Source: a virus. Taken from it: a stretch of 64,000 nt of DNA. Position 1 is the first letter of the stretch. Each line of letters begins with the position of its first letter. Positions 15,585 to 64,000 of the stretch are shown here, piece by piece. The position numbers and the translations under genes are program-made. The notes under the pieces were generated by a model. That model searched no databases. It was not told the DNA's origin and worked only from the letters and a program-made list of their open reading frames with translations. The stretch is from positions 1-64,000 of IMG/VR virus record IMGVR_UViG_3300025674_000019; one strand, given 5' to 3'.

Positions 15585-17133
15585 GATCTTTCATCATGAC
15601 CTTAGCCGCCACCCATGCGAATACTTGAGCGTGAAAGGCGTCATCCGGGTTAGAAGGACTATGAGTCCAAATCTTCTTTCCTGATGGGGTAGTCTCTTCA
15701 TAGAGAGCCAGCATGTCCTTAAAGGCCATTCCCATCAAATCCCTAGAGAGGTACTTAACTCTCCGCTTCTTAATAGTCATCATATAGTTGTCTATAAGGG
15801 TGGTCTTATCTGCTAAGTACCTATCTACTCCATTCCACTTGAGCGGAGTTGCACTGGATCCGTATTGCAGCTGAGCCACCTTGGCTTTGCCGCTCACTTT
15901 TTTAGCTAGCAGCGAGTTAGCAAGGGCGCCCTCTCCCGCGTCTCCTACTATAAATGATGCTCCAAACTTGCTCATGTGCTTAGCTATGTCTTCAACTACT
16001 TCTACGGGGTTTTGATCTGGGTATATCTTAAACCACCTAGTTGTTACACTCCCTGCATGGTCTACCCCAAAGATCCATGCTGCAGTTCTAGACTTACCCT
16101 TAGTTCCTCCTCCGCTCCAGTCTATACCTCCGACTGTGCACATGAAGGGCCCTACAGGGGGCTTTTCAAATGATGCTAGGCCGCAACACTTATTGAGGTC
16201 TTCTATGGATAGCAGCCTAGTACCTAGAGAGTCACTTACCCCTAGTACCTCGTTCTTGAATTTAGACTCAGTGTACAGGTTCAACTTCTCTAGTATTCTG
16301 CCCCACCTGGTCTGGTCTTCTATGTTCTGCGGTAGTATTAGCTGAGGTACGTGGAATCCTTTCATCCTAAAAAAAGCGGGGTCGTCAGGGGTGGCGTCCT
16401 TAGGTATAGGGTGCATGTCCACCCAGCGCCCTTCTCTTGGGTTCACGTACTTGGAGCAGTGCAGGCACTCTATTCCCTTCTTTCCTATACCCTTTGTGGT
16501 TCTATAAAAGCTGTACTTACCGCATCCTGAGCACTTTACGCACCATTCGCTCTGTGTAGAGTTGTCCCACAGAAACTGTATAGTGTTCTCCATGGTAAGA
16601 GGGGTCCCCATATAGCTTGTGTATGCAAATGGAGAGTTAGCCAAGCACTCGTTAATAACAGGCACTACCTCATCGTAGATAATGTTCTGTACCTCATCGT
16701 AAACCACTCTATCCGCAGATATACCTCGCGCACGATCTGGATTATCTGTGGCATAAGAGAATAGAAGTTCGGAGCCGTTAGCTAGGATCTTCAGAAATAC
16801 GTTGTCTGAAGCTCCCGCTGCGAAAGCCTTAATGTCTGGGCTATGCCTGAGAATCTTTCCTACTCTCGTGGTAGAAAAGGTTGAGGTCTGCTTCAGCGAT
16901 GGGGATATGTACAAGGTCTTAAAGAAGGGCGTACATACCGCATCAACGATGCTAAAGCCCGCGGCTGATACGGATTTACCCACCTGTCGTCCGCACATCA
17001 AGATAGAGCTTCTATAATCACCAGAGTACAGCTGGTGGTAAAACGGGTAGTCTTGCAGGCTAAACCGAGAGCCATCTAGCCATAGTAAATTCTCGGCAAC
17101 ACTCAGTCTGGAGCTAGTAATAGTTATGTCCAA
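15571..17133 (-). CDS. terminase large subunit (GpA-like, with CxxC...CxxC)
   Basis: GRQVGKS, RARGISAD, YDEVQ, GTPLT; nuclease motifs GIDWSGG, DAG, PDDAFHA; likely TTG start at 17133 with GAGGT RBS. Confidence 0.88.
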   Translation of the reverse strand: MDITITSSRLSVAENLLWLDGSRFSLQDYPFYHQLYSGDYRSSILMCGRQVGKSVSAAGFSIVDAVCTPFFKTLYISPSLKQTSTFSTTRVGKILRHSPDIKAFAAGASDNVFLKILANGSELLFSYATDNPDRARGISADRVVYDEVQNIIYDEVVPVINECLANSPFAYTSYMGTPLTMENTIQFLWDNSTQSEWCVKCSGCGKYSFYRTTKGIGKKGIECLHCSKYVNPREGRWVDMHPIPKDATPDDPAFFRMKGFHVPQLILPQNIEDQTRWGRILEKLNLYTESKFKNEVLGVSDSLGTRLLSIEDLNKCCGLASFEKPPVGPFMCTVGGIDWSGGGTKGKSRTAAWIFGVDHAGSVTTRWFKIYPDQNPVEVVEDIAKHMSKFGASFIVGDAGEGALANSLLAKKVSGKAKVAQLQYGSSATPLKWNGVDRYLADKTTLIDNYMMTIKKRRVKYLSRDLMGMAFKDMLALYEETTPSGKKIWTHSPSNPDDAFHAQVFAWVAAKVMMKDLNFY

Positions 17134-18391
17134 GATTGATACCTCATCTAATAGAAACGGCGCTATTGCCGAATACTTCCAGTCTATGGGGATTCTTCCT
17201 ACAGGGGTGAGCACCCTGGCACCGATGATCTACATCAGCTGGAAAGCTGGGCTCGTACCAATGTTGGTTGGTGCTGCTGGCTCAGGCAAGACAGAGATTA
17301 TCAAACAACTCTGCAAGGTAACAGGGGCAGACCTGCTACACATCTTCGTAGCACACGTGGGGTCCGAGGAGATCAAGGGCCTCTTCTTCCGTAATGAAGA
17401 GTGCGATAAGACCTACAAAGTCTTAGTAAATGAGGAGATCCACGACGCCGTAAAGAAGGCTACTGACACGGGGACTCCTCTAGTAATCTTCCTCGACGAG
17501 CTGAATCGCGCAAGCGATCAAGATAGCCTAAATGCTATCTTCAGCATGATATCTAAGAGAGGTGTTCCGGGTATGGACTTCCCGGACAACATCCACTTCG
17601 TGGCGGCGGGTAACCCTCCCACAGGTAAGTACTCTGTGGCGCAGATGGCGGACGACGCGTTTGTTCGTCGCCTGCTATGGATGGGTGTTACGGTGGACCC
17701 GGCCTCCTGGCTAAAGTATGCAAGAGGAGAGAAGCTCTCCGTTAATCTCCCTGCGCCAAAGAAAGGCTTTGAGCTTGTAGAGCTGCCCCTTCACGCTAAG
17801 GTACAGAGCTACATCCAAGCTAGGCCGGACGACCTCTTTTCCGAAGCTATGGCCAATCAGGGCAAGCCTCACCCTAATCCTGCCTCGTGGACTAGGGTAT
17901 CTAACGTAGTAAAGACCCTTGAGGCGCACAAGGTCAAGTCTCCTCAAGTATTTAAGACCCTCATCTCCGGTCTGATTGGTGATGCTATCTGCAATGGCTT
18001 CTACGCTAGCTATATCGATGGGCGCTTGCACATCCCACCAGAGGATATTCTCGAAGGAGATTGGTCCAAGGTAGAGAAACGCCTGCGCACTATCAGGGAA
18101 GAGAATCGGCATGATCTTATGGGGGAGACGATTAAGGCCGTCTGCTTCAAGATCAAACTTGATAGGCCTGATGCTACCCCGGAGCTTGCTGGAAATCTGG
18201 TGTCCTTCCTCGATCAACTCACGGAGGACCAGCAAGGGACTTTCTCGTCTTTGCTAGGAGTGTCAGACATTCCAGAGAGCGAGAGACTAGCTTACCTGCA
18301 GTACAAGAGCTCCCTCACAAAAGAGATGCAAAAGGACAGCAGATTTATTAAGATCTCTACCAACCTTCTGGATCTTCAAGGAGCCGAATGA
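17126..18391 (+). CDS. MoxR-like AAA+ ATPase
   Basis: GAAGSGKT, IFLDELNRA, AAGNP, D.AFVRR, P.PASW. Confidence 0.85.
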   Translation: MSKIDTSSNRNGAIAEYFQSMGILPTGVSTLAPMIYISWKAGLVPMLVGAAGSGKTEIIKQLCKVTGADLLHIFVAHVGSEEIKGLFFRNEECDKTYKVLVNEEIHDAVKKATDTGTPLVIFLDELNRASDQDSLNAIFSMISKRGVPGMDFPDNIHFVAAGNPPTGKYSVAQMADDAFVRRLLWMGVTVDPASWLKYARGEKLSVNLPAPKKGFELVELPLHAKVQSYIQARPDDLFSEAMANQGKPHPNPASWTRVSNVVKTLEAHKVKSPQVFKTLISGLIGDAICNGFYASYIDGRLHIPPEDILEGDWSKVEKRLRTIREENRHDLMGETIKAVCFKIKLDRPDATPELAGNLVSFLDQLTEDQQGTFSSLLGVSDIPESERLAYLQYKSSLTKEMQKDSRFIKISTNLLDLQGAE

Positions 18392-20600: not shown

Positions 20601-22232
20601 CTAACTTCCGCCAGCTAGCTGCTGTTGCCTGCGGCTCTCATCAAACATAGCCTGCTGAGCGTCCACAGCGTCCAGCGGGTCAAACTGTTGGTAGTGCACA
20701 GGGTTAGTAACTGTACTAGTTGGGTTAAGGTCGCTTAGTCCTCTAAGGTAGTTAAGCTCAGACTGAAAAGAACCTTGTTGGTACGCGTCGGATAACTCTT
20801 TAGCTGCCATCTGCTTAGCTATCTGTGCGCTATCTTTTTGATTCTGCTCGTATTTTTGTATGTCTGAAAGAAGGTTAAACCTAGCGTCTTGTTCGCGTTT
20901 TTCGTCTAAAGTATCTATGAAGCCCAGACGATCCCCCAGAAAGTAGCTACCTAGGCCTAGACCTGCCCCGACTAAGCCTCCCAGCCCAGCTCCCGCACCA
21001 ATTCTACCGGCCAGCCTTGGTAAGCCTCTAGCCGCAGGGATACCTTTGTGTGCGGCTGCGCCTATAGCCGCACCCAGACCTGCGCCTCCTAGGCCAAAGT
21101 CTTTATAGTCATATAAAGCATCATTGGGGTCGGTTAAGTTGAAATCTCTATCGCTTAGGGCCTTTCTCAGTACCCCGAGTCTCTCAGTCTGAGCTTCCAT
21201 CTCCGACTGGCCAGGGAACTCTCCTCTATACATAGAGGGAATAATTACCTCAGAAGCTTCCTTAACCTGATAGCCCATCTTACTAACCAGTAGCTTAAGC
21301 ATGTCAGCAGGTAAGATAGGTAACTCTTCTACTAGCTTTGCCTCGTCGAGCTTTCCATCTGTAGTAATCTCGGGAAGAATGTCGTCCCCAAGTACATCCC
21401 CATAGAACTCAGGGTCTTTCTTCATGAGGTCGGCTAGAGGAACATCTGTGCCTGCTAAACTAACCATCTTTTCCATAGAAGTCTTAGTATTAAAGACTGT
21501 CTCCATGGGGTTAGGGAGCTTTCGGTTGTAGTGAACTTGCAGACCGTATACTTCGTCTAGCTTACCTACAGTCTCTGCAATCTTAACAAGGTCATCACGA
21601 GTGTTATCCGAATCAAAAGCGCGGACTACGCTAGCAACCTTAGAGAATACACCGTTAGCCTTGCCGCTAAGGGAGTCTTCTCGCGCCTCAATCCACTCTG
21701 CTGCTTTCTCTAGGTCACACTGAGCCAAGCCCGCCCACTGCATAACTACAGGGCTAACATTCTGGTCGCTATCCGCTGCTGCCTTTACAAGGACAGTCGC
21801 TGCGGTAGCAAGGTCTTCAGTGCTCAACTTAGAGCTAACCCTCTTAAGAGCCGCTTCAGCTTTGGGAACATCACTAGCTGTCTTAATGCCGAATTTCTTC
21901 TGCTTAGGTAGCAGGTACCTAGGCTCTTCGTGAGCAACCTTAACCTGCGCTTTAGGCGGCAGGATTATCCCATAGATCTCCGCCGCCCTAGAAAGGTTGC
22001 TAGAGACATGGGGCGCAAGGTCCGCAGTTTTGATGGCATAAGCTAGCGACATCGCTGTGTTAGCTGGCGTGTCGATAGGATACGCCCTATTGTACGTATC
22101 TGCAAAAGCAGAACTAGGTAGGTTATCTAAGGATACGCCGACCGAAGCATGCTTAATGAGGGGCTCGATACCGGGCCTCTCCTGCAGTATATTATATAGG
22201 GTCCTATGTGTGAAATCTCGCTGCTGGTCCAT
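20601..22232 (-). CDS. putative head/virion protein with many K-x-A/S motifs and a glycine zipper
   Basis: KHAS, KTAD, KVAH, KTAS, KVAS, KIAE, KEAS; GLGGAGLGAAIG..GAGAGLGGLVGAGLG; start at ATG 22232 (GGAG RBS). Confidence 0.55.
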   Translation of the reverse strand: MDQQRDFTHRTLYNILQERPGIEPLIKHASVGVSLDNLPSSAFADTYNRAYPIDTPANTAMSLAYAIKTADLAPHVSSNLSRAAEIYGIILPPKAQVKVAHEEPRYLLPKQKKFGIKTASDVPKAEAALKRVSSKLSTEDLATAATVLVKAAADSDQNVSPVVMQWAGLAQCDLEKAAEWIEAREDSLSGKANGVFSKVASVVRAFDSDNTRDDLVKIAETVGKLDEVYGLQVHYNRKLPNPMETVFNTKTSMEKMVSLAGTDVPLADLMKKDPEFYGDVLGDDILPEITTDGKLDEAKLVEELPILPADMLKLLVSKMGYQVKEASEVIIPSMYRGEFPGQSEMEAQTERLGVLRKALSDRDFNLTDPNDALYDYKDFGLGGAGLGAAIGAAAHKGIPAARGLPRLAGRIGAGAGLGGLVGAGLGLGSYFLGDRLGFIDTLDEKREQDARFNLLSDIQKYEQNQKDSAQIAKQMAAKELSDAYQQGSFQSELNYLRGLSDLNPTSTVTNPVHYQQFDPLDAVDAQQAMFDESRRQQQLAGGS

Positions 22233-22246
22233 AAGGGGGTACTCCA

Positions 22247-23779
22247 TTGAGACGGCGTAGACGAAGCTTTCTTAATACTAGCGCACTAAGCGCTGAGGTA
22301 CAAGTTACCGATCTGCCCAAGTATTTCGTACTCATGTTTAACAGAAGTACGTTCCTAGCGTCATACTGCTCAGTCATCGCTAGGCTAAGGAGGTCCGAAG
22401 CTCCGGGCCTTGGAACTATGGGAGTTCGCAACCTCCCTCAAGGAGGGGCCGAACTCCTCTATGACCCTCTGTTTAACGACATGGTTAAGGTCCCTGCCCA
22501 CCGAGATAGTGTGGGCAAGATCCTCATACACGAGCTTGTGCACCTCCAGAACAACCATACAGGTAGAGGCTTGAGGTTATACCAGCTCGAAATGGATAAA
22601 GATCTGTGGGCAAAGGTGTCCCCTGTAGCGGTGGACTTTGCGTGCAACAGTTCCTGTGTTAAATGGGACCTGTTTACTGAAAAAGATCTTCTATCATCAG
22701 AGCCTTATGAGCTAGATGAAGATGGAGCCCCTGTCATAGACGACAACGGTAGGCCTGTATCTAAATGGCGCGGCCTATGGCCCCCCGAGTACGATCTTCC
22801 TGTAGGCCTCTCTTACGAGCAGTACTACAAGATTCTATCGGACATCGAGAAAGATAAGCCGCCCCCGCAGTGGCAGCCCTCCGGAGAAGGGGGTGAGAGC
22901 GGCGAAGGAAGTTCTGACTCTGAGTCGGGTAAAGACCTGGAAGAGAAGATGCAGAAGGTCAAAGACCTGCTTGATCGAACCTCTAAAGGTAAGAAGAAGT
23001 ACGTACACGCAGAGGATCTTACAGATCTCTCAGAAGAAGAGATCGAGGACCTGATCGCAGCTGCAGAGGCTAATTCGCAAGCGGCTATTAAAGAGATCAG
23101 CTCGGAGCTTAAGAGCAGGGGATTAGGGTCTTCCGCTCTAGCTATGGAGCTTAAGGAGCTCCTTAAAGATCCGGTACTAGACGCTAAGCAAGTTATCCGG
23201 TCTATGGTAATCCAAGAGTCCCTTAAAGTGGGCAAGAAGAAATCACTTAGGGTTCCTAATAGGCGTAGAACTGCACTGGAAAGAACTGGAGTCTGCCTCT
23301 TTCCTGGCAAGCTTAAGGACACTCGGGCGCGGGTAGCTTTCTTTGTAGACACCTCTGGCTCTGTGTCGGAAGCAGAGTTTGAAGAGGGTCGTGCAGAGTT
23401 TGTAGGACTGCATAATTACCTTAAAGAGGTTACTATCGTGTACTGCGATAGCGATATTACTAATATCGAAAAACTCTCTGGAGATAGTAAGTTCCCTGCG
23501 AAGCGCTATGGGTGCGGAGGTACAAGCTTTGACCCTCCCTTCCAATGGCTGTCAGAGCAGGCAACAAACTACGATATGGTAGTCTACCTTACAGACGGAG
23601 GAGCGCCTCTTCCTGATGAAAGGCTAAGGGCTAACATTCCCGTTCTCTGGCTGATCACGAGTAGAGGTCATCTTCCTGGTAGATACTTCGGAGGGGGTAG
23701 AATGGATATTGGCCGAATGTACGGGCCCGCAGAAGGCTTGGACTACGGCACAGCTATCAAGCTTCCAGCTAGGCTGTAA
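22247..23779 (+). CDS. DUF2201-type metallopeptidase + VWA-like domain protein (MoxR partner)
   Basis: HELVH (HExxH), acidic linker, MIDAS VDTSGS, GGTSF, LTDG; TTG start with AAGGGGG RBS. Confidence 0.85.
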   Translation: MRRRRRSFLNTSALSAEVQVTDLPKYFVLMFNRSTFLASYCSVIARLRRSEAPGLGTMGVRNLPQGGAELLYDPLFNDMVKVPAHRDSVGKILIHELVHLQNNHTGRGLRLYQLEMDKDLWAKVSPVAVDFACNSSCVKWDLFTEKDLLSSEPYELDEDGAPVIDDNGRPVSKWRGLWPPEYDLPVGLSYEQYYKILSDIEKDKPPPQWQPSGEGGESGEGSSDSESGKDLEEKMQKVKDLLDRTSKGKKKYVHAEDLTDLSEEEIEDLIAAAEANSQAAIKEISSELKSRGLGSSALAMELKELLKDPVLDAKQVIRSMVIQESLKVGKKKSLRVPNRRRTALERTGVCLFPGKLKDTRARVAFFVDTSGSVSEAEFEEGRAEFVGLHNYLKEVTIVYCDSDITNIEKLSGDSKFPAKRYGCGGTSFDPPFQWLSEQATNYDMVVYLTDGGAPLPDERLRANIPVLWLITSRGHLPGRYFGGGRMDIGRMYGPAEGLDYGTAIKLPARL

Positions 23780-23780
23780 G

Positions 23781-24314
23781 TTGCCTGCGTACCACATACA
23801 CCTGAAAAAGCCTAAGAACCTTCCTTTCAGGTCATTCTACCTGTGTACAGACTCAGAGGCAGCCGCAGACGTGGCTGCCTCTGTAGATGTGCTTATAGAG
23901 CTTCCGGCTAAGCCGTACATTCCTAAGATAAAAGAGTGTGACTCCTGCGACGATGAGTCAGCTAAAATCCTAGACTCAGCGGAAGACGGAGTAATTCTTG
24001 TACCTATGCTTACGGACCGGTCCGGGGCTCCCAAGTATGTATCGCTGTACAAGCCAGACGTTGAGCGCAGAAGGAAAGAGTACTTCTGGAGTATGCGAGG
24101 AGTCTCCTGGGGCTTTCGCAGAGAAGAGGTAACTTCTTCTGTAAAGATCTACGAAAGCAGAGTTGGCCTAATAGTTAAGGGCCAAAGGCAAGGCAGCCCC
24201 TGCAGTCACTGCCCTAAAGTTCTAGATAGCTTAGGTGCTGACGCTACTTGTACCTTCGGACTGAAGGTATGCAAAGAAACCCTAAATCTCAAGGAGCTAC
24301 TCCGTGAAGATTAG
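23781..24314 (+). CDS. hypothetical Cys-cluster protein
   Basis: TTG 1 nt after the VWA stop; C-terminal CSHCPKVLD..C.....C; overlaps the RT start. Confidence 0.6.
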   Translation: MPAYHIHLKKPKNLPFRSFYLCTDSEAAADVAASVDVLIELPAKPYIPKIKECDSCDDESAKILDSAEDGVILVPMLTDRSGAPKYVSLYKPDVERRRKEYFWSMRGVSWGFRREEVTSSVKIYESRVGLIVKGQRQGSPCSHCPKVLDSLGADATCTFGLKVCKETLNLKELLRED

Positions 24315-25362
24315 ACATATCAACTACACTGAGCCTGCAAACGAGGCTCTTCCTATCCTGCTGGACTATACCAGCTTAGCGTACGCACTTGACTTGGATG
24401 GCAGCGGCATAAATGGGCTAGTTAGAGGAGCTACTCGGGAAAAGGCCGGAAGCGAAAACTCTCTTTATGAGCACTTTCAAATACCTAAGTCTGGGGGAGG
24501 AGTAAGGCACATATACTCCCCCAATGCGATGCTAAGCGCAGTGCAAACTAAGATCCGAGATAGAATCATCGATAAGGTTCCTAAGATGAGGGAGAGCGCT
24601 GCCTACGAGCCAGGATCAAGGCCAGGAGACACGGCTGCTCTCATAGCAGGGGCGGAAGTGATTGTTAAGCTAGATGTTAAGAATTACTTCCCGAGTATAC
24701 TTCAGTCTACCGTAAAGAAGTTCTTTGAGCACCTCGGCTATCCTAGCACTGTGGCAAACCTCCTTGGAGGAGTTTTATGCGTCTTAGACAAGGACGGAAA
24801 GAGGTTCGTTCCTCAAGGAGGGCCCGCCAGTCCTATGCTTGCTAACCGAATAGCGGAGTGGCTCATCGACCCAGAGGTAAAGAAGGTCACTCCCCCCGGG
24901 TGGAGTTACAGGAGGTACTGCGACAACCTGTACCTATGGCCTGCTAGTCCGGAAGCCCTAGAAGGAGTAGTTCCAAAAGACTTGCTCACAGACCTAAAGA
25001 AAGCTGTATGGGCAGCTGGGTTCTGCGGTCACCAAGGAAAGATAGTACCTAAGCACAAGAGCCAGCGGATCTTGGGTCTATGTGTTAACGTGAAGGCTAA
25101 CATGCCTAGAGAGAAGTACAAAGCTCTCAAGGCGTGCCTGCACAACTGCGCGTACCACGGCCTAGAGTCTCAAATGGACAAAGCCATCTTGCTAGGATTT
25201 AAGAGAAGGGCTGGCAGCAGCTTGAAGCAAGAGAAGCTACGGTTCATAAAGTTTCTGTCGGGGTACCTGAGCTACTACAAGCACTTCCTGGTAACAAACA
25301 GGATAGAAAAACTTGAGAAGTCCTTCCACGCTGCGCTGGCAAGAGAGGGTGAGTCAGCTTGA
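24304..25362 (+). CDS. retron-like reverse transcriptase with atypical YCDN motif
   Basis: F.IPKSGGGVRHIYSP, LSAVQTKI, KLDVKNYFPSI, VPQGGPASPMLAN, YRRYCDNL, QRILGLCVN, LKACLHN, LSGYLSY. Confidence 0.88.
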   Translation: MKIRHINYTEPANEALPILLDYTSLAYALDLDGSGINGLVRGATREKAGSENSLYEHFQIPKSGGGVRHIYSPNAMLSAVQTKIRDRIIDKVPKMRESAAYEPGSRPGDTAALIAGAEVIVKLDVKNYFPSILQSTVKKFFEHLGYPSTVANLLGGVLCVLDKDGKRFVPQGGPASPMLANRIAEWLIDPEVKKVTPPGWSYRRYCDNLYLWPASPEALEGVVPKDLLTDLKKAVWAAGFCGHQGKIVPKHKSQRILGLCVNVKANMPREKYKALKACLHNCAYHGLESQMDKAILLGFKRRAGSSLKQEKLRFIKFLSGYLSYYKHFLVTNRIEKLEKSFHAALAREGESA

Positions 25363-26954
25363 GGTTCATCGCTTTAGAGTCAGCTCTTAGCGGAGATATA
25401 GTCCGAGACTCTAATTCGCCGGCCAGAAGCGGCGTAATGGTTATTACCAACGACGGGTCAGAAGAAGAGATAGATAGCTTAGCAGTATCTCTTCAGGAGG
25501 TGTCCCAAGATAGTGTGTTTGTCCTTCGTCCTCAGGTACTTAATTCTTCTAAGGCTATAACCATAGATGCAGCCTCGGGCCGTCGCCTAGATACATGGGT
25601 GGGCAGAATTGGAGCTGGGCGTAACATGGTGGAAGTTTCACTGTTGGACTGCACCTACGCCAGTCATTACCCTATGAGGCTCTCGTCTAAGTTCATAAAC
25701 AATACCGGAGCGGTCATACAAGTAGGTAGCCCGCATTCTGCCGTTGATCTATACCCGTATGTAGAAGCAGTAGTGCACGAAGGGCAGGCAGTGGAAGTAG
25801 AAAAGCTTAGCGAACTGGTTAGCTATCTTGGAAGCTGTGCCGATCCTATGCAAATCCTAAGAGGATGCTCCTCTTGCACAGAAAGAGCGTGCTACCAGCA
25901 TGCCCGAGGCAGTAAGGGCCTAGTGTATGAGTGGCTAGAAAAGCAAAAGGGCTACATTAAGCCTTCTGGATTTGACTCCGTATTTAGCCCGAGAAGAGTC
26001 TCTAGGCTGAGCCTAAGGAACCACTTAGACTGGGATGGGACTTCTAGGGTAGCTAACGATAGGTTACTCGCCGCAGAAAAAGCGAAGAAGACTCGCCATA
26101 AGAAGAAGACGGATTGCTCTAGGTGCGTAGAAAACCTTAGGAAGGGGTACTACGCAGATAAAAAGTGCAGCCGAATGAAAGACTGCGAAGGCCCAGTTAC
26201 TGCGGGTATGACTAGAGAAGCTATGCTGGACTTCTCTAGGTCTGCGGGGCTAGCTACGCACTATGGCAGTTACCTAGCGCAGGCTAATATACACCTAGCC
26301 GGGTGTGGCATAGTTGCACGAATAGGTGGAAGGAAAAAGCAGCAGTGGCACGTTGCTTACGCTTTTGACCCTAGATCCAAGAGCAAAAACTACCATAGCT
26401 TTAGGGTCAGCAAAGTAGAGCCCTACTACACAGACTTGGACGTTAGCAAAGTGCCAAGCCGCATAAGAGTACTACTGTACAAAGATCAAAATACCTACAC
26501 TGGTAGGGAGCCTACCGTAGTACGCCTTAAAGACCTTCTCTTAGGGTTGGTGTCTTACACAGGTCTCAATCCCCTAGACTCCGTTCCTACTAAAGCTAAA
26601 TGGAAAAAAGTCCCTAGGGATGTAATTCTTATGCACAATACAGTGAACGCAATGCCCTCCGCCAGGTACATATCGTGTGAACACTCTAAGGATAGGGAGT
26701 ACGATATTTGGGGTTATGGTATAGGGGTAGCTCTGCCTACAACCGTAGGTAAGATTGCTAAGCTGTTAGACGAACCAGGTAGCCCTTACGCTGTTAAGAT
26801 GTTCAGCTACAGGCCGTTCCCCCAGACAAGCTTCAAAAGCTACTATTCGTGGTTAGATAGAAGTAGTCTCTGCCTAAGAAAGGTGGAAGACTTATACAAA
26901 AGCACATATACCGGAAGAGGTAACGTCTCTTCTGCAATACTAGGATCAGCATGA
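25359..26954 (+). CDS. hypothetical Cys-rich protein coupled to the RT
   Basis: 531 aa; TTGA overlap with RT stop; CSSCTERAC and CSRC..C....C clusters. Confidence 0.7.
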   Translation: MRFIALESALSGDIVRDSNSPARSGVMVITNDGSEEEIDSLAVSLQEVSQDSVFVLRPQVLNSSKAITIDAASGRRLDTWVGRIGAGRNMVEVSLLDCTYASHYPMRLSSKFINNTGAVIQVGSPHSAVDLYPYVEAVVHEGQAVEVEKLSELVSYLGSCADPMQILRGCSSCTERACYQHARGSKGLVYEWLEKQKGYIKPSGFDSVFSPRRVSRLSLRNHLDWDGTSRVANDRLLAAEKAKKTRHKKKTDCSRCVENLRKGYYADKKCSRMKDCEGPVTAGMTREAMLDFSRSAGLATHYGSYLAQANIHLAGCGIVARIGGRKKQQWHVAYAFDPRSKSKNYHSFRVSKVEPYYTDLDVSKVPSRIRVLLYKDQNTYTGREPTVVRLKDLLLGLVSYTGLNPLDSVPTKAKWKKVPRDVILMHNTVNAMPSARYISCEHSKDREYDIWGYGIGVALPTTVGKIAKLLDEPGSPYAVKMFSYRPFPQTSFKSYYSWLDRSSLCLRKVEDLYKSTYTGRGNVSSAILGSA

Positions 26955-27358
26955 AGATATCGGCTAAAGACTTGAGGGCGGGGATACCTCCGTTCCTTAA
27001 AGGTCAGATTACTAACATTACCCCTATGGGTAGCTACTGCATACTTCTTGTAGAATGTGAGACGCACGGCCACGAGTACTCAATTCCAGTAACTAAGGAT
27101 TTCATGGCAAAGAAGTTCTCGGGCAAGGAGATTGAAGTATGTCAGCCTGGAGAAGAGCTGCCAAAGCATACTAAGCCCGCAGCCTCAAAGGCAGACTCCG
27201 GCAGGTCTGGACCTAGAATTGGCTCTAGGCGTAAGATTAAAGGTGTGCTAAAGGAATGCATCCGTTACGACTTTGAATCGGTGGATCTCCCCGGTAAGAG
27301 GCGTCAAAGGGACCCCGCTTCAGGTAGGCTCGGGTATCCTGTGTGGGCAGTCATTTGA
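26951..27358 (+). CDS. hypothetical basic protein
   Basis: 135 aa; ATGA overlap with the upstream gene. Confidence 0.6.
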   Translation: MKISAKDLRAGIPPFLKGQITNITPMGSYCILLVECETHGHEYSIPVTKDFMAKKFSGKEIEVCQPGEELPKHTKPAASKADSGRSGPRIGSRRKIKGVLKECIRYDFESVDLPGKRRQRDPASGRLGYPVWAVI

Positions 27359-29217
27359 TCTCGCTACCGCATGACTCTGTAAAATTCCTGCGGCCTCTAT
27401 CTGTCCTTGAGGTCAGCCCTAATGGGGACACTAAAGACGTAACTCTTCGGCTATGTACTTCATACCTAGGAGAGGACTTATTCCTAGATGAAGATAAGTC
27501 CTATGTCATACTCGCGGCTGCCCCGGGCAACAGGTCCTACTTCGGGTACGGAGGCTCCACACCGTGGGGAGATCACGAAGACTCCGCCTATGTAGCCAGG
27601 ATGCTCAAAAGCTGTCAGTCCGAGATTATTAATAGCCTCATCTGTAGGGTAAGCCTCAACAACTGGTCTACCAATCTAGGCAGAAGGCCTAACTTCTCGG
27701 CTAGATATATAAGCACCTCTCAGTGGAGGCAAGTATGGGTAAACTACAGCTATTATGTAGTAACAAATGACTTCGATAAACTTGAAGAGGTAGCCCCTTG
27801 GGTAGGCACCAAGAGCGAGTCCTTCATACTAAGAAACTTTGCTAGAATGCACCTAGAGTCTAAGGAGTTTAAAAGCGCTCCTAGGCGGATAGATGACGAG
27901 CAACTTAAAGTGCTGAACTCTGTACTATCTTCTAGTTGGGCTACTGAGCCTCCGCCTCTTATCATGAACTACGACTGCCTGGACGAGTTCTTGGCTAGCT
28001 ATAAAAGGGCCTACAACACGAGTAGTAAGGGAATGGTTAACCATAAGAACTACGCATCTGAGGTTAACTATATCATACACATGATCACAAGCTTCTACGA
28101 ACTAGTAAACCGCAGGATGGACGATAACTCTATCTGGAGATGGCTCAAGAACTTCACATCTTTGCACCCTGCACAAGAAGAGGTGGAGCATCGTTATACA
28201 AGTGTTCTAGACAGCAATTCAAAAAGGGACCTCACCGGGGAGTACGGTGCTTGCTTTGGTGGCAGCCAGTGGTCTTTCCCTGGAAGGCATCTAGAGGCTA
28301 TAGCGAGTATAAAGACTGACACTCCTCTTATTCGAGCCCTAAAAAGCCAGCTGTACGAGCTAGTAAAAGTAGTAGTGCAAAGGGATAACTCTCTAAACCT
28401 AAACTGGAAGGCTCTAAGGGAAGAGTACAAGCTCAGCGCTGAGTCCTGCGTTCGCAGAAAAGGGTCAGTAAAAAGAGGTGAGTACATCCTAAGAGAAATC
28501 ATGGGCTGCGTGGAGCAGACGCTCTTATCTTCTCTTCCAATGTACAAAAAGTGGTACACCGGAGTAGGCGCGAGAGTGGGCAAGGACTACGAGAGGGCTT
28601 TCTATGGTGATAACGGAGCTATCAGCCCTGGAGTTATCGACGAAAGAGTTCAAAGAATGTCCTCTCGGTCTTCCTACCGGGCTGGGCTATTCTTGGCCTG
28701 GTGCCTTCAAGAGAGTCTTAGTCCTAACCGGGAAGAGGCGAAAGTACCCCTTACGATTAGGCGCGCTCTAGAGGACCCTTCTAAGATGACTGTGTCGTCC
28801 CTCGTGCATATATCCGCGGGTCTCGCAGAAGCAGGATTTACTTCCAGGGTTTTGCCTTACCTTAAAGAGCTAGTTTCAAGGTACTACGAAACCGAAGAAG
28901 CTACTCGAAGCGTAAGTCTTACTAGCCTAGACTCTACTTTTGCTGTTACCGAAGTTAATAAATACGGGCAGCCAGAGCCTTCTTCTCCTTCGCCTATGTC
29001 AGTTACCGGTTACTCTACTATTGCCGAGATGATCTACCGACTCTGTAGGAAGTTGGAGAGGTCCTTGCCCGAAGAGGTTGGTGAGCTCCTTGATGCTATG
29101 GCTAAGCATATGGGCCGGTTGCTAGTAGAAGAGAAGCCCCAGTGCCTTCGTAAAGAGTACAGGATTATACTCCTTAGAGAGTTAGCGGATCCTGGGCATT
29201 GGGTGCGAAAGGCTTAG
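27343..29217 (+). CDS. hypothetical protein
   Basis: 624 aa ORF; last gene before a terminator. Confidence 0.7.
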   Translation: MGSHLISLPHDSVKFLRPLSVLEVSPNGDTKDVTLRLCTSYLGEDLFLDEDKSYVILAAAPGNRSYFGYGGSTPWGDHEDSAYVARMLKSCQSEIINSLICRVSLNNWSTNLGRRPNFSARYISTSQWRQVWVNYSYYVVTNDFDKLEEVAPWVGTKSESFILRNFARMHLESKEFKSAPRRIDDEQLKVLNSVLSSSWATEPPPLIMNYDCLDEFLASYKRAYNTSSKGMVNHKNYASEVNYIIHMITSFYELVNRRMDDNSIWRWLKNFTSLHPAQEEVEHRYTSVLDSNSKRDLTGEYGACFGGSQWSFPGRHLEAIASIKTDTPLIRALKSQLYELVKVVVQRDNSLNLNWKALREEYKLSAESCVRRKGSVKRGEYILREIMGCVEQTLLSSLPMYKKWYTGVGARVGKDYERAFYGDNGAISPGVIDERVQRMSSRSSYRAGLFLAWCLQESLSPNREEAKVPLTIRRALEDPSKMTVSSLVHISAGLAEAGFTSRVLPYLKELVSRYYETEEATRSVSLTSLDSTFAVTEVNKYGQPEPSSPSPMSVTGYSTIAEMIYRLCRKLERSLPEEVGELLDAMAKHMGRLLVEEKPQCLRKEYRIILLRELADPGHWVRKA

Positions 29218-29227
29218 GCCTAAAAAT

Positions 29228-29255
29228 CCAGCCTCATAAGCTGGTTTTTTTAGCT
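29228..29255 (+). terminator. intrinsic terminator of the RT operon
   Basis: CCAGC-CTCATAA-GCTGG-T7-AGCT. Confidence 0.75.
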
Positions 29256-29266
29256 CCCACCGATGA

Positions 29267-29302
29267 CGCAAAACGGGGGGCCTAAATTGGCATAAGAATA
29301 TG
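29267..29302 (+). promoter_or_regulatory. putative phage promoter CGCAAAAC-N16-CATAAGAATATG
   Basis: Identical boxes and identical 16-nt spacing recur at 52456-52491; both precede + strand gene blocks. Confidence 0.7.
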
Positions 29303-29453
29303 AAGGTAATCTTTAAGCCTTCCACAAAGGCTTCTGGTCAAGATTGAATTCTACGACCAGATCAATTTGTGCTTAATCAACCAGGGCCCAAGCCAGGTAG
29401 CCAATCCTGTGCAGTGGCCATATGTAGCGCGACACGCGCTAGAGGAGAGAGAA

Positions 29454-29969
29454 ATGCAGAAGTTCGTGACAAGCGGTGTTAGGGGAGGGAAAGATGTATC
29501 GAATATCCTTTGGGCTCTCCGGGAGGCCAGGCGGGCGATTCAGGGCGTAACGGTAAAGATCCCTTTAAAATCGAAGCAGATCCCGGCCTACAAGGCAGCT
29601 GAAGATGAGATCAAAAAATACTGCGGCCAGCACGCCGCAGATCAATTTTCAGAATTGCTGTGGGAGTTCGGCCAGGACTCCCTGGAGGGAAGCCCCGAAG
29701 GCCCCCGCCTTAAGGCGGGTCGGGTGACCTTTTCTTCCTTTTCAGTATACCTGAGCCCGAACCCTGGATGGGCGGGTATATCGGTCCAAGTAAGCAACCC
29801 GAAAGGGTTGCTTAGAGAGGGATTCGACGGGCTCGAAAAGAGCCTTAAATCGCTCAGCGAAGAACAAAATGTGGGGGTCCATGACCCAGCCGTTGAAGGG
29901 CTGGGGATAGAGAACGCTCGAAGAACCCAGGCAGGGTTCAACTGCCAGAAGAAGGAGGAGGAGGGTTAG
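29454..29969 (+). CDS. hypothetical protein in a stand-alone cassette
   Basis: ATG 29454 with GAGGAG RBS; own promoter and terminator. Confidence 0.65.
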   Translation: MQKFVTSGVRGGKDVSNILWALREARRAIQGVTVKIPLKSKQIPAYKAAEDEIKKYCGQHAADQFSELLWEFGQDSLEGSPEGPRLKAGRVTFSSFSVYLSPNPGWAGISVQVSNPKGLLREGFDGLEKSLKSLSEEQNVGVHDPAVEGLGIENARRTQAGFNCQKKEEEG

Positions 29970-29990
29970 CCCTCCGCCTCCTTCTTCTGT

Positions 29991-30024
29991 CGGTTGGCCC
30001 CGCGCAACCCGTTTTTTTTTAGCT
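29991..30024 (+). terminator. intrinsic terminator
   Basis: GGTTG-GCCCCGCG-CAACC then CG-T9-AGCT, preceded by a long hairpin at 29946-29989. Confidence 0.7.
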
Positions 30025-63259: not shown

Positions 63260-64000
63260 GTGTCGATACTTTCCGGAAAATAGATGTTCAGTAGTAAAAT
63301 GCATTACGTAATGCATTTTTGCTACATCTAGGTTACACACACATGTAACTAAACGTCGTAGACTGTATACAATTTCTGCTACATCTATGTATACTTTCCG
63401 TTTTTCCGTTATACTTTCCGGAAAATAGGTCTGAATAATATCATACACTTAACTGTACTTTCCGTTTTTTCCGCCTATTTTCCGAAATGGATTTCCTTTT
63501 TAATATCATATAGTTACAGCGAAAAATGGCCTACTTTCCGTTTTTTTCGGAAAATACCTATATATAGGTACTGAGCCCTACTTTTTTTTTCACTCGCCAA
63601 AGGGGCCCGTGAGGGGTACTAAAAATAGTTTAATTTTTTTACTTCCTGTATAGGTGTTCAGGTGAGTATATATCGTACTACCTACTGTAATAACCCTTAG
63701 CTTTGGACTTAGGCTTAAGTTTGCATGTAAGGGCAGTAGTTGGACTCCAGAGTATACACAAAGAGTCAACAACTAACTTAAAAAACCAGTAATTCCCTCG
63801 CGCGTAACGTATATATAGGTATATAAGTATTTCCCTGAAAAAGAGGAAAATAGGGTAAAATAGGGGCTAACCCCATAGAATCACTGGGAAAATACTTTCC
63901 GGAAAGTATAAACAGAAAACGGAAAGTAGCCGTAAGTCTATGTAATTGTTAAGATCTATTTTCCGGAAAGTATGGACCAAAAACGGAAAGTATACATAGA
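63260..64000. repeat. AT-rich non-coding region with TACTTTCCG iterons, palindromes and a long inverted repeat (candidate origin)
   Basis: Six TACTTTCCG on + and four on -; arms 63384-63468 and 63916-64000 are inverted copies. Confidence 0.8.

What the first reader, a model, noticed from the sequence alone, without database searches (positions are those of the whole stretch)
22247..29255. Phage-encoded retron-like RT inside a coupled six-gene operon with no recognisable retron layout
Seen: VWA-peptidase, Cys protein, RT, 531-aa Cys-rich protein, 135-aa protein and 624-aa protein abut or overlap (23779/23781, 24304-24314, 25359-25362, 26951-26954, 27343-27358) and end at one terminator. No intergenic space is available for msr-msd next to the RT, no known retron effector is recognisable, and the codon style looks like the phage core. 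Established: retrons are normally ncRNA-RT-effector defence units of bacteria. Inference: a domesticated phage RT system with new partners, possibly for counter-defence, inter-phage competition or a replication role. This is the best candidate for an undescribed system here.
Basis: partly seen in the sequence, partly recalled or inferred. Interest (0 to 1): 0.85.

Follow-up and report, generated by a model that had tools for sequence, protein, structure and literature searches.

The report
Clade-wide phage reverse transcriptase module
An uncultured aquatic phage and its relatives all carry, in the same genome slot, a retron-related reverse transcriptase with an unusual active site and a set of partner proteins of no known family, which looks like a long-domesticated phage system of unknown role rather than a bacterial-style retron.

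Summary
Six co-directional ORFs (22247-29217) abut or overlap exactly as described and end at a hairpin plus T-run.

The RT belongs to the retron lineage: its best matches are PADLOC RT_XIII and the solved Ec86 RT. It is not a canonical retron:
- Motif C reads YCDN.
- The NAxxH histidine is missing and VTG reads ILG.
- There is no room for an msr-msd gene, no Rfam match and no conserved RNA structure.
- No partner matches any Pfam, PADLOC, NCBIfam or PHROG family apart from the zincin-VWA gene.

The new result is that the RT is a fixed, vertically inherited gene of a whole phage clade:
- It lies between the VWA gene and the tail-side gene g307 in 11 of 11 assessable loci that were found without using the RT.
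- Its tree matches that of neighbour g548.
- Its dN/dS is 0.06.
- The active site is Y[C/S]DN in 15 of 16 members.

A small Cys4 protein accompanies the RT almost everywhere, with weak predicted binding. The other partners evolve very fast.

The function is untested. I read it as a domesticated phage RT module with new partners. The scan had already noted the YCDN motif on this same window.

The parts
17126..18391 (+). MoxR-like AAA ATPase. It is the probable working partner of the zincin-VWA gene and part of the conserved block. It is context, not part of the operon.
   Evidence: It matches phrog_1297 (ATPase) at 9.1e-43. It is syntenic in L006, L012 and L018 and in the 15 loci L098-L112.
22247..23779 (+). 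Gene 1: zincin-like metallopeptidase fused to a VWA domain (DUF2201_N plus DUF2201).
   Evidence: Pfam gives 1.6e-08 and 1.5e-13; phrog_1314 gives 1.4e-39. The HExxH residues H95, E96 and H99 and the MIDAS-like residues D368, T369, S370 and S372 are invariant in 6 of 6 sequences. The gene lies directly upstream of the Cys4/RT pair in every relative. The same family occurs without an RT in 79 of 80 other phage loci.
23781..24314 (+). Gene 2: small protein (177 aa) with a C-terminal Cys4 motif, C-x2-C-x12-C-x6-C, read as a putative zinc ribbon.
   Evidence: The four Cys are invariant in 10 of 10 loci. jackhmmer collects 13 members. dN/dS is 0.2. Predicted binding to the RT has weak support: ipSAE 0.55 against a best control of 0.00. 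It has no match in Pfam, PADLOC, NCBIfam or PHROGs.
24304..25362 (+). Gene 3: retron-lineage reverse transcriptase (352 aa). The motif A Asp is at 24673-24675. Motif C, YCDN, is at 24916-24927.
   Evidence: RVT_1 scores 2.2e-11 and PADLOC RT_XIII scores 4.8e-47. The family profile matches the solved Ec86 RT at 1.5e-30. YCDN is invariant in 24 of 24 homologues. Across the clade the motif is Y[C/S]DN in 15 of 16 members. dN/dS is 0.06.
25359..26954 (+). Gene 4: 531-aa protein with two conserved Cys clusters and no known family.
   Evidence: C160, C170, C173, C178 and C253, C256, C270, C276 are invariant in 4 of 4 sequences. The 5.8-billion-protein search finds only 3 proteins. hhalign to the middle protein of L098, L102 and L103 gives 85.6% probability, E 5.6e-6. 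The AF2 model failed, with pLDDT 35.8.
26951..27358 (+). Gene 5: 135-aa protein with a basic middle section and a conserved C-terminal motif, G.RR...P..G..[FY]P[IV]W.
   Evidence: jackhmmer collects 10 members, including L098 and L102. The alignment is A11. It has no family match.
27343..29217 (+). Gene 6: 624-aa fast-evolving protein. It has an N-terminal alpha/beta domain (about residues 1-210) and a C-terminal all-helical domain.
   Evidence: A profile search of 1.84 billion representatives finds 5 proteins. hhalign to the large protein of L006 and L007 gives 97.5% probability, E 6.5e-12. The AF2 model has pLDDT 72.9 and pTM 0.78. Foldseek against the PDB finds no match at E <= 0.001. The best VIA-align Z is 6.3.
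29228..29251 (+). Terminator-like hairpin plus T7 that closes the operon.
   Evidence: It was found in the pattern scan and confirmed in the sequence.

Best explanation
The six ORFs form one tightly coupled unit in a probably virulent, uncultured aquatic phage.

**Core of the unit.** The core is a retron-lineage reverse transcriptase that has been a fixed, vertically inherited gene of a whole phage clade. The RT keeps the finger and palm motifs under strong purifying selection. It carries Y[C/S]DN in place of YADD. It has lost the retron-specific residues tied to msr recognition and priming (the NAxxH histidine and VTG). It has no adjacent msr-msd gene.

**Partners.** A small Cys4 zinc-ribbon-like protein travels with the RT, before or after it. 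One to three very fast-evolving proteins of no known family follow. A zincin-VWA gene always precedes the pair.

**My reading.** This is a domesticated RT module that works for the phage. An RT plus zinc-ribbon complex makes or holds a DNA or RNA-DNA product on something other than a classical msr-msd. That template could be a phage transcript such as the operon mRNA, or synthesis could be protein-primed or untemplated. The fast-evolving partners then couple that product to a task that faces the host or a rival phage, most likely counter-defence or exclusion of rivals.

**Shown:** the anatomy, clade-wide synteny, co-divergence, purifying selection, and the absence of a retron layout and of known effectors.

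**Inferred:** catalytic activity, the complex, the template and the biological role.
For: **Anatomy.** Coupled ORFs and a terminator.

**Retron lineage.**
- PADLOC retron RT models match 16 of 16 clade members, with RT_XIII best.
- The family profile matches the solved Ec86 RT at 1.5e-30, against 1e-7 for group II RTs.
- NCBIfam scores are 15.8 bits for Drt2 and 13.5 bits for Drt3a.

**Not a retron.**
- The Ec86 NATPH segment aligns to TAALI, VTG aligns to ILG, and YADD aligns to YCDN.
- Rfam gives nothing.
- Genes abut in the window and in the relatives.
- The best hairpin (23854-23883) and a 10-nt inverted repeat (23715/23913) are not kept in the nearest relatives, L002 and L003.

**Core-gene status.**
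- The RT is present in the same slot in 11 of 11 assessable loci found with g548 alone. Four of the 15 loci were too short to assess.
- It is also present in L018, which was found with VWA alone.
- The RT and g548 maximum-likelihood trees share the supported groups.
- The Mantel correlation is r 0.87, with 0 of 2000 permutations as high.

**Selection.**
- dN/dS is 0.06.
- The motif A Asp, Q171-G172 and S176 of motif B, and the first motif C Asp are invariant in 16 of 16.
- The aromatic residue at the steric-gate position, F129, is invariant in the window's sub-clade.

**Lifestyle.**
- G000 has no integrase or resolvase.
- A pattern scan of 185,579 species genomes finds no copy.

**Partners.**
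- Cys4 is invariant in 10 of 10 loci.
- Predicted RT-Cys4 binding has weak support: score 0.55 against a best control of 0.00. In the tool's calibration, 58 of 80 solved complexes and 2 of 110 mismatched pairs reach the mark, but scores of 0.60 or less are weak. The three runs agree in at least 92% of contacts and the partner's pLDDT is at least 69.
- Identity falls much faster in the partners than in the RT. Against L002 it is RT 87%, VWA 83%, Cys4 61% and g531 49%.
Against: - The second catalytic Asp of motif C is replaced by Asn. From recall, not a call here, the same change inactivates HIV-1 RT. Polymerase activity is therefore unproven, and the protein could be a binding-only pseudo-enzyme.
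- No template, product or primer was found.
- No partner has a recognisable domain, so nothing ties the module to a particular role.
- The predicted RT-Cys4 contact is only weak.
- Co-transcription is not shown.
- The Spearman correlation between RT and g548 distances is only 0.42.
- L110, L107 and L111 are long branches in the RT tree.
- The clade sample comes from two collections. L102, L104 and L105 look like one lineage, as do L099-L101, so the 11 loci represent about seven independent lineages.
- The VWA gene occurs widely without an RT. The unit may be looser than six genes.
Confidence: 0.5

Rival explanations
1. It is a true but divergent retron, close to type XIII, that the phage uses for superinfection exclusion or abortive infection. 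The msr-msd would be hidden inside coding sequence or lie elsewhere in the genome. The large fast-evolving protein would be the toxic effector, held in check by the RT and its msDNA.
For: - RT_XIII is the best PADLOC model for the RT family.
- Type XIII retrons pair the RT with a Zn-finger protein and a HEAT/ARM-like helical protein, and that RT co-evolves with the helical protein (PMC7736814, passages read). Here the RT sits with a Cys4 protein and a protein whose C-terminal half is all-helical.
- The G of VTG is kept.
- A 10-nt inverted repeat (23715/23913) encloses an 11-bp hairpin just upstream of the RT.
Against: - The PADLOC type XIII partner models give no hit at E <= 0.1.
- The Cys motif is C-x2-C-x12-C-x6-C, not the SWIM pattern CxCx12CxH.
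- The RT covers only positions 106-390 of the 469-position RT_XIII model.
- The NAxxH histidine is absent.
- The inverted repeat and the hairpin are lost in L002 and L003, and about three 10-nt inverted repeats are expected by chance in this region (the chance estimate is my own).
- Folding z-scores at the same site in eight relatives range from -3.1 to +0.7.
- A fixed slot and co-divergence across a deep clade are unusual for defence islands. That last point is inference.
Confidence: 0.2
2. The RT-like protein no longer polymerises. After the D-to-N change it became a nucleic-acid-binding or scaffolding subunit, a pseudo-enzyme, within a phage protein complex. That complex might be built or processed with the help of the zincin-VWA protein and the MoxR ATPase.
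For: - The motif C second Asp is Asn in 15 of 16 members, while the most divergent member, L111, still has YADD.
- The gene is always next to a zincin-VWA gene with an intact HExxH and MIDAS-like motif.
- No template RNA was found.
Against: - Q171-G172 and S176 of motif B, the motif A Asp and the first motif C Asp are invariant in 16 of 16, and R68 of the fingers is also invariant. That pattern fits retained nucleotide binding and catalysis.
- From recall, polymerases of mononegaviruses work with GDN, so a D-N pair does not by itself rule out activity.
- dN/dS of 0.06 fits either reading.
Confidence: 0.17
3. The RT serves the phage's own genome replication or end maintenance, for example by making a DNA primer or copying an RNA template at genome ends. 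The cassette would then be part of the replication module.
For: - It has core-gene behaviour: a fixed slot, co-divergence, and conservation as high as the neighbouring backbone genes. Mean pairwise identity is RT 0.35, VWA 0.36 and g548 0.46.
- An ATPase and a helicase lie in the same conserved block.
- From general knowledge, Cys4 zinc modules next to a polymerase recall the zinc-binding domains of primases.
Against: - The phage has its own family A DNA polymerase, primase and helicases.
- Partners of an essential replication enzyme would be expected to be conserved. Here they are lost, gained, moved and diverge beyond recognition.
- The genome ends are not known, because the record is linear and estimated 83% complete.
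Confidence: 0.1
4. The RT is a decaying orphan or a selfish retroelement remnant with no function for the phage.
For: Both retron signature motifs and the YADD box are altered.
Against: - dN/dS is 0.06.
- The frame is intact in all 24 homologues and in 16 clade members down to 27% identity.
- The altered motif is itself conserved.
- No group II intron RNA was found in Rfam.
- No TR/VR-like repeat was found.
Confidence: 0.02

Closest known systems
Type XIII retrons (Mestre et al. 2020, PMC7736814; passages read)
   Same: - It is the best-scoring RT model: PADLOC RT_XIII scores 159 bits for the window, and the best E among 16 clade members is 4e-64.
- The RT is accompanied by a Zn-binding protein and a helical protein.
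- There are several partner genes rather than one.
   Different: - The host is bacterial for type XIII; here it is a fixed gene of a probably virulent phage clade.
- The partner models do not match.
- The Cys motif is not SWIM, and no winged-helix or DEDE module was seen.
- The RT lacks the N- and C-terminal parts of the type XIII model.
- Motif C is YCDN, the NAxxH histidine is absent and there is no ncRNA.
- The paper's supplements, which hold the sequences and ncRNA models, were closed, so no direct comparison was made.
Retron Ec86 RT (solved structures 7v9x and 8qbk; closest by sequence profile)
   Same: - The alignment runs over residues 56-323 at E 1.5e-30.
- The fingers and palm motifs match, and the thumb has the pattern R-x-x-x-G-L-x-V.
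   Different: - Ec86 has NATPH, YADD and VTG; here these read TAALI, YCDN and ILG.
- Ec86 has an adjacent msr-msd and an effector; neither is present here.
Retron-like RT of lytic Staphylococcus jumbo phages (MarsHill gp206; bioRxiv 10.1101/2020.12.14.422802, passages read)
   Same: - It is a retron-like RT in a lytic phage.
- It is not a DGR, has no recognisable effector, and its function is unknown.
   Different: - gp206 is 501 aa with an extra N-terminal domain, and it has a 1.2-kb non-coding stretch upstream that is proposed to hold the ncRNA.
- Here the RT is 352 aa, sits in a gap-free operon with five other genes, and has a DN active site.
- A Staphylococcus phage record (H17) is only 23.6% identical. 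I did not check whether it is a MarsHill relative.
Abi and DRT class 1 reverse transcriptases (AbiK, Abi-P2, DRT3b; mostly recalled; class definitions seen in the abstract of PMC13174585 in the listing)
   Same: They give a possible working analogy: an RT that needs no msr-msd, makes untemplated or protein-primed DNA, and works with helical partner domains.
   Different: - There is no sequence membership: Drt2 scores 15.8 bits against a cut-off of 390, and Drt3a 13.5 against 200.
- Those are accessory defence genes of bacteria and prophages, not core genes of a phage clade.

Membership tests
Retron (as defined in Mestre et al. 2020) | The RT belongs to the retron/retron-like sequence clade. 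| tested here: met
   PADLOC retron RT models match 16 of 16 members. The profile matches the Ec86 RT at 1.5e-30, against 1e-7 for group II. No labelled phylogeny was built.
Retron (as defined in Mestre et al. 2020) | [quoted passage not shown] | tested here: not met
   The Ec86 NATPH segment aligns to TAALI. The position is not His in any of the 24 homologues.
Retron (as defined in Mestre et al. 2020) | [quoted passage not shown] | tested here: not met
   It reads ILG or LLG. Only the G is kept; G258 is invariant.
Retron (as defined in Mestre et al. 2020) | A contiguous msr-msd ncRNA gene is bounded by inverted repeats. | tested here: not met
   - There is no intergenic space in the window or in the relatives.
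- Rfam gives nothing.
- The candidate repeat and hairpin are not conserved in L002 and L003.
- There is no consistent folding signal.
- An ncRNA hidden in coding sequence or lying elsewhere is not excluded.
Retron (as defined in Mestre et al. 2020) | A known effector gene or fused effector domain is present. | tested here: not met
   There are no PADLOC, Pfam or NCBIfam hits for the window's partners. Partners from other lineages gave 0 of 19 Pfam hits and 0 of 10 PADLOC hits.
Type XIII retron | An associated protein carries a winged helix and a C-terminal SWIM Zn finger (CxCx12CxH). | tested here: not met
   There is no PADLOC hit. The motif here is C-x2-C-x12-C-x6-C.
Type XIII retron | A HEAT/ARM-like repeat accessory protein is present. 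| tested here: inconclusive
   The C-terminal half of the 624-aa protein is all-helical. The best fold matches are weak: Foldseek E >= 0.14 and VIA Z <= 6.3. There is no PADLOC hit.
Diversity-generating retroelement | A TR/VR near-repeat pair lies near the RT. | tested here: not met
   No direct repeat of 40 nt or more lies near the cassette. The only two families in 64 kb are at 60.7 kb and 63.4 kb.
Group II intron | An intron RNA and a maturase-type RT are present. | tested here: not met
   There is no Rfam match. group_II_RT_mat scores 39 bits against a cut-off of 300.
DRT / UG / Abi reverse transcriptases | Sequence membership in a DRT family. | tested here: not met
   Drt2 scores 15.8 bits (cut-off 390) and Drt3a 13.5 bits (cut-off 200). 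All 25 PADLOC matches shown for the window RT, and all 25 shown in the per-family table, are retron RT models.
Catalytically standard reverse transcriptase | Motif C has the Y-x-D-D box. | tested here: not met
   YCDN is found in 24 of 24 homologues. Across 16 clade members there are 7 RYCDN, 8 RYSDN and 1 RYADD.

The most novel reading that the evidence does not exclude
A dsDNA phage clade depends on its own retron-derived polymerase with a non-canonical D-N active site. Together with a zinc-ribbon subunit, this enzyme would synthesise DNA without any msr-msd RNA as a regular step of infection. That step could be priming, genome-end maintenance, or making a decoy nucleic acid that disarms host immunity. 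This would be a new functional class of reverse transcriptase: a core phage gene, not a defence island.
Probability: 0.2. Interest if true: 0.9.

Novelty: new variant of a known kind. Interest (0 to 1): 0.72.

Why it matters
Retron-lineage RTs are known as accessory bacterial defence genes that are patchily distributed. Here one has been kept for a long evolutionary time as a fixed gene of a phage clade. It has a changed catalytic box, has lost the msr-binding signatures, has no ncRNA gene, and has partners drawn entirely from protein dark matter.

If the enzyme is active, it would show two things. An RT can work with D-N in motif C, and phages have recruited the retron scaffold for their own purposes. 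That bears on how the retron and DRT families arose and on phage counter-defence.

It also gives a compact, testable set of proteins. The RT and the Cys4 protein together are about 530 residues, small enough for biochemistry and possibly for tool development.

Tried and rejected
**Close relatives**
- blastn of the cassette against 50,697 phage records gave no match.
- tblastn of the RT against the same records gave only hits of 27% identity or less.
- Pattern scans of IMG/VR with the RT, with g531 and with the RT alignment found nothing. L018 later showed that a relative was there and the patterns had missed it.
- A pattern scan of genome contigs found nothing.

**Structures**
- The AF2 model of g531 failed, with pLDDT 35.8.
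- The ESM Atlas gave no usable hit for g624 or g531.
- The g624 model has no clear fold match, so calling it HEAT/ARM-like is not justified.
- PDB profile searches were empty for g624, g531 and Cys4. The only hit for Cys4 was a cytidine deaminase PCxxC stretch at E 0.79. I rejected it because no conserved H/C-A-E motif lies upstream in alignment A4.

**Embedded ncRNA**
- The strongest folding windows are the terminators near 29.9-30.0 kb and the stretch 23800-23919.
- That second stretch is not conserved in L002 or L003.
- Synonymous-site identity peaks at 0.72-0.80 against a mean of 0.49. That is within what about 33 independent windows of 25 codons can give, and the peaks sit at gene junctions and at motif C.

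**Expression**
- One metatranscriptome run (X10) holds four short exact contigs, at 23569-23785, 23944-24094, 24471-24621 and 29337-29535.
- The tool warns that DNA can be present in such libraries, so I do not count this as evidence of transcription.
- Parts of the stretch without cover mean nothing.

**The roughly 1-kb gene-poor stretch beyond the window**
- It has no Rfam match at E <= 0.1. I did not pursue it as an RT template.

**Homology among the large and middle partners of distant lineages**
- Most pairs gave hhalign probabilities under 10%. Only their position, not homology, links L012-L015, L099-L101, L107, L110 and L111 to the window's g531 and g624.

**Literature**
- Searches for YCDN with reverse transcriptase, DUF2201 with reverse transcriptase, DUF2201 alone, phage-encoded retron in marine settings, retron-like RT in phage genomes and the phrase 'phage-encoded reverse transcriptase' found no description of this module.
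- The library lacks most subscription journals, and supplements were closed. The type XIII sequence sets of PMC7736814 and the SPIRE survey PMC13712802 could therefore not be compared. The SPIRE survey covers prokaryote genomes only (passages read).

**Not built**

Full report
**1. Observation**

The ORF listing gives six co-directional ORFs: 22247-23779, 23709/23781-24314, 24304-25362, 25359-26954, 26951-27358 and 27343-29217. There is a 1-nt gap at 23779/23781, then overlaps of 11, 4, 4 and 16 nt. A hairpin at 29228-29244 followed by seven T lies 11 nt after the last stop.

Pfam recognises only the first and third genes:
- Gene 1 matches DUF2201_N plus DUF2201, a zincin-like peptidase plus VWA domain, at 1.6e-08 and 1.5e-13.
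- Gene 3 matches RVT_1 at 2.2e-11.

PHROGs, PADLOC and NCBIfam add nothing for the four other proteins.

The surroundings are those of a phage. Helicase, primase, family A DNA polymerase, large terminase, baseplate wedge and ribonucleotide reductase genes are present. The window is the first 64 kb of a 133,289-base virus record estimated 83% complete. GC content is even across the cassette and its flanks. The record has one RT only and no integrase or resolvase.

**2. The RT**

PADLOC's retron RT models are the best matches. RT_XIII scores 159 bits, RT_other 145 and RT_outgroup 142, followed by types III-A, II-A, XI and XII.

NCBIfam scores, each far below its cut-off:

| Model | Bits | Cut-off |
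|---|---|---|
| retron_St85_RT | 125.7 | 235 |
| group II RT | 39 | 300 |
| Drt2 | 15.8 | 390 |
| Drt3a | 13.5 | 200 |

A profile of 24 homologues hits solved retron RTs first: Ec86 at 1.5e-30, Ec67 at 9.4e-26, then Ec78 and Ec83. Group II RTs follow at about 1e-7.

The residue-by-residue alignment to Ec86 shows three differences:
- The region X motif NATPH aligns to TAALI.
- RYADDL aligns to RYCDNL.
- RKVTGL aligns to R-ILGL.

According to Mestre et al. 2020 (PMC7736814, passages read), NAxxH and VTG are the retron signatures, with H and G the most conserved residues. Here the H is lost and the G is kept. The RT is therefore of retron descent, but it fails the retron signature tests and matches no described type at family level.

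**3. Homologues and selection**

The 5.8-billion-protein search returns the window's own protein, 23 relatives at 45-87% identity and one distant RT. Several of these are named by their sources as Tara or JGI metagenome proteins.

YCDN, the motif A Asp (D124), the aromatic F129 and the QGG-x-x-S-P-M-x-A-N-R block are invariant in all 24.

Against the nearest locus, L002:

| Gene | dN/dS | aa identity |
|---|---|---|
| RT | 0.06 | 87% |
| VWA | 0.06 | 83% |
| Cys4 | 0.2 | 61% |
| g135 | not computed (dS saturated) | 70% |
| g531 | not computed (dS saturated) | 49% |

dS is about 1.5-1.8, which is near saturation. The RT is the best-conserved gene of the cassette and is not decaying.

**4. Neighbourhood conservation**

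*Metagenome contigs found with the RT alignment.* Sixteen metagenome contigs encode RT relatives. tblastn with the window's 13 neighbouring proteins and ORF maps show one gene order in all the long ones (L006, L011/L012, L013, L014, L015):
- ATPase, helicase, g221(-), g548(-);
- then VWA, a small Cys protein and the RT;
- then, in some loci, a g135 homologue;
- then a large protein of 577-812 aa;
- then g307(-) and g287(-).

*Scans that did not use the RT.* Because those loci were found with the RT, I repeated the search with neighbours alone.
- A scan of IMG/VR with a VWA alignment gave 80 loci. Seventy-nine are unrelated phages without an RT. One, L018, has the whole block with an RT at 37.5% identity.
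- A scan with a g548 alignment gave 15 loci. In 11 of them at least 2 kb lies beyond VWA, and all 11 carry the RT in the same slot.
- The other four (L106, L108, L109, L112) end too early to tell.
- L103 is the same contig as L018. L102, L104 and L105 give identical figures and L099-L101 are close, so the 11 loci stand for about seven lineages.

*Co-divergence with g548.*
- Maximum-likelihood trees of the RT and of g548 recover the same supported groups: (window, L006), (L012, (L014, L015)), these two together, (L099-L101), and L098/L102/L103. L111, L110 and L107 are long branches.
- Pairwise identities correlate, with Mantel r 0.87 and 0 of 2000 permutations as high. Spearman is only 0.42.

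The RT is thus a vertically inherited, fixed gene of a phage clade whose backbone proteins have diverged to 33-48% identity. No copy was found by pattern scan in one genome each of 185,579 prokaryote species. That fits a virulent lifestyle.

**5. The active-site variant is old and maintained**

In an alignment of 16 clade RTs, motif C is RYCDN in 7, RYSDN in 8 and RYADD in one. The exception is L111, the most divergent member.

D124, Q171, G172, S176, N181, R204, Y205 and D207 are invariant, and N208 is nearly so. A changed catalytic box kept this strictly, next to intact nucleotide-binding motifs, argues for a working site with altered chemistry rather than a dead one. This is inference. From recall, the same change inactivates HIV-1 RT, while mononegavirus polymerases use GDN.

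**6. Partners**

*Cys4 protein.*
- It ends in C-x2-C-x12-C-x6-C in 10 of 10 loci.
- jackhmmer collects 13 members.
- In L099-L101 it lies after the RT rather than before it.

*135-aa protein.*
- It has 10 family members, including distant L098 and L102.
- It has a conserved C-terminal motif.

*531-aa protein.*
- It has two invariant Cys clusters.
- It has only two homologues in the big search.
- hhalign links it to the middle protein of L098/L102/L103 at 85.6% probability, E 5.6e-6.

*624-aa protein.*
- A full HMMER search of 1.84 billion representatives finds five proteins.
- hhalign links it to the large protein of L006/L007 at 97.5%, E 6.5e-12.
- Its AF2 model (pLDDT 72.9, pTM 0.78) has an N-terminal alpha/beta domain and a helical C-terminal half.
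- No convincing fold match was found.

*Partners in other lineages.* None of 19 partner proteins has a Pfam hit. One extra 218-aa protein has a sub-threshold SspB match. None of 10 partners has a PADLOC hit.

*Predicted RT-Cys4 complex.* It scored 0.55 against a best control of 0.00, which the tool rates as weak support. In the tool's calibration, 58 of 80 solved complexes and 2 of 110 mismatched pairs reach the mark, but scores of 0.60 or under are weak. The three runs agree in at least 92% of contacts and the partner's pLDDT is at least 69.

*The zincin-VWA gene.* It keeps its HExxH and MIDAS-like residues. Its family is widespread in phages without an RT. Its natural partner is probably the MoxR-like ATPase at 17126-18391.

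**7. Search for a template RNA**

- Rfam gives nothing at gathering thresholds in 64 kb. In 20-31 kb at E <= 1 it gives only chance hairpin hits at the terminator near 29.95 kb.
- Genes abut or overlap throughout the cassette in the relatives too. There the large protein also overlaps or nearly abuts g307, with a gap of at most 44 nt.
- The most structured windows are the terminators near 29.9-30.0 kb and the stretch 23800-23919.
- That stretch holds an 11-bp hairpin nested in a 10-nt inverted repeat, which is a retron-like picture. Both are lost in L002 and L003.
- Folding z-scores at the same site in eight relatives are unremarkable.
- About three such 10-nt repeats are expected by chance in this region, by my own estimate.
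- A synonymous-site scan shows no clear outlier.
- No TR/VR-like repeat exists.
- The 29.25-30.0 kb segment is absent from the relatives examined. It holds a structured leader, noted earlier as e1-6149803, and a 172-aa ORF. It therefore cannot be a clade-wide template.

**8. Interpretation**

What is shown:
- a gap-free operon;
- a retron-descended RT that is a core, co-diverging gene of a phage clade under strong purifying selection;
- a maintained D-N active-site variant;
- loss of the retron msr-related signatures and of any msr-msd gene;
- a near-universal Cys4 companion;
- fast-evolving partners of no known family.

What I infer is that this is a domesticated RT module working for the phage. 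An RT plus zinc-ribbon complex would act on a template other than an msr-msd, or without a template. The fast-evolving partners would face the host or rival phages.

I cannot tell apart counter-defence, exclusion of rivals and a replication role. The turnover of partners makes a host- or rival-facing role more likely than core replication.

The rivals are given with their odds in the Rival explanations section: a hidden type XIII-like retron, a pseudo-enzyme, replication or end maintenance, and a decaying orphan.

**9. Comparison and novelty**

The closest known things are:
- type XIII retrons, by RT model and by the Zn-protein plus helical-protein company;
- the Ec86 RT, by structure-backed sequence;
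- the function-unknown retron-like RT of lytic Staphylococcus jumbo phages.

Membership in retrons, type XIII, DGRs, group II introns and DRTs fails on tested defining features. My six literature searches found no description of this module. The library is incomplete and supplements were closed.

I class it as a new variant of a known kind: a retron-lineage RT system with a new layout, host and active site. There is a 0.2 chance that it is a functionally new class. I confirmed them and showed that they are clade-wide.

Noticed in passing
window 29250-30020: This segment holds a structured leader (29303-29453) and a 172-aa ORF starting at ATG 29454 with a purine-rich ribosome-binding site. It lies between the RT operon's terminator and g307. 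It is absent from all relatives examined, where the large protein overlaps or nearly abuts g307. Folding z-scores across it range from -3.2 to -7.6, apart from one window at -2.9. One RNA-library contig covers 29337-29535.
   Followed up: partly
window 29934-30018: A long inverted repeat (32-nt arms, 84% complementary, purine-rich against pyrimidine-rich) contains the stop codon of the 172-aa ORF. It is followed at once by a GC hairpin and T9. The pair looks like a bidirectional terminator between convergent genes.
   Followed up: partly
window 20601-22247 (-): g548 has an N-terminal half of about 325 aa that is conserved at 33-61% identity across the clade. Its C-terminal part is variable, with a Gly-rich, membrane-like stretch and a Gln-rich tail. 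Its start and the VWA gene's start face each other with at most about 14 nt between them, so both promoters must lie inside coding sequence.
   Followed up: no
L099-L101, L107, L111: Gene order in the module varies. In L099-L101 the Cys4 gene follows the RT. L107 and L106 have an extra 218-223-aa gene between VWA and Cys4, which in L107 gives a sub-threshold SspB match at E 0.0023. L107 has a single 1147-aa partner. L111 has a canonical RYADD box and only one 529-aa partner.
   Followed up: partly
window 60664-60875: Three copies of a 62-nt unit (63-82% identity to the reference copy) lie inside the 709-aa ORF on the minus strand at 59659-61788. This suggests a repeat-containing protein.
   Followed up: no
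window 63380-63487: Two 44-nt direct repeats carry TACTTTCCG-type sites.
   Followed up: no
L113 3184-4180 (genome 65184-66180) and L113 7370-9943: About 1 kb just beyond the window has only one 84-aa ORF and no Rfam match at E <= 0.1. Three tRNA genes on the minus strand follow, at L113 7370-7441, 9224-9297 and 9870-9943.
   Followed up: partly
window 23781-24314 (alignment A4): The conserved P-C-x-x-C of the Cys4 protein gave a weak PDB profile hit to a cytidine deaminase zinc site, at E 0.79. No upstream H/C-A-E motif is conserved, so I did not take it as a deaminase.
   Followed up: partly
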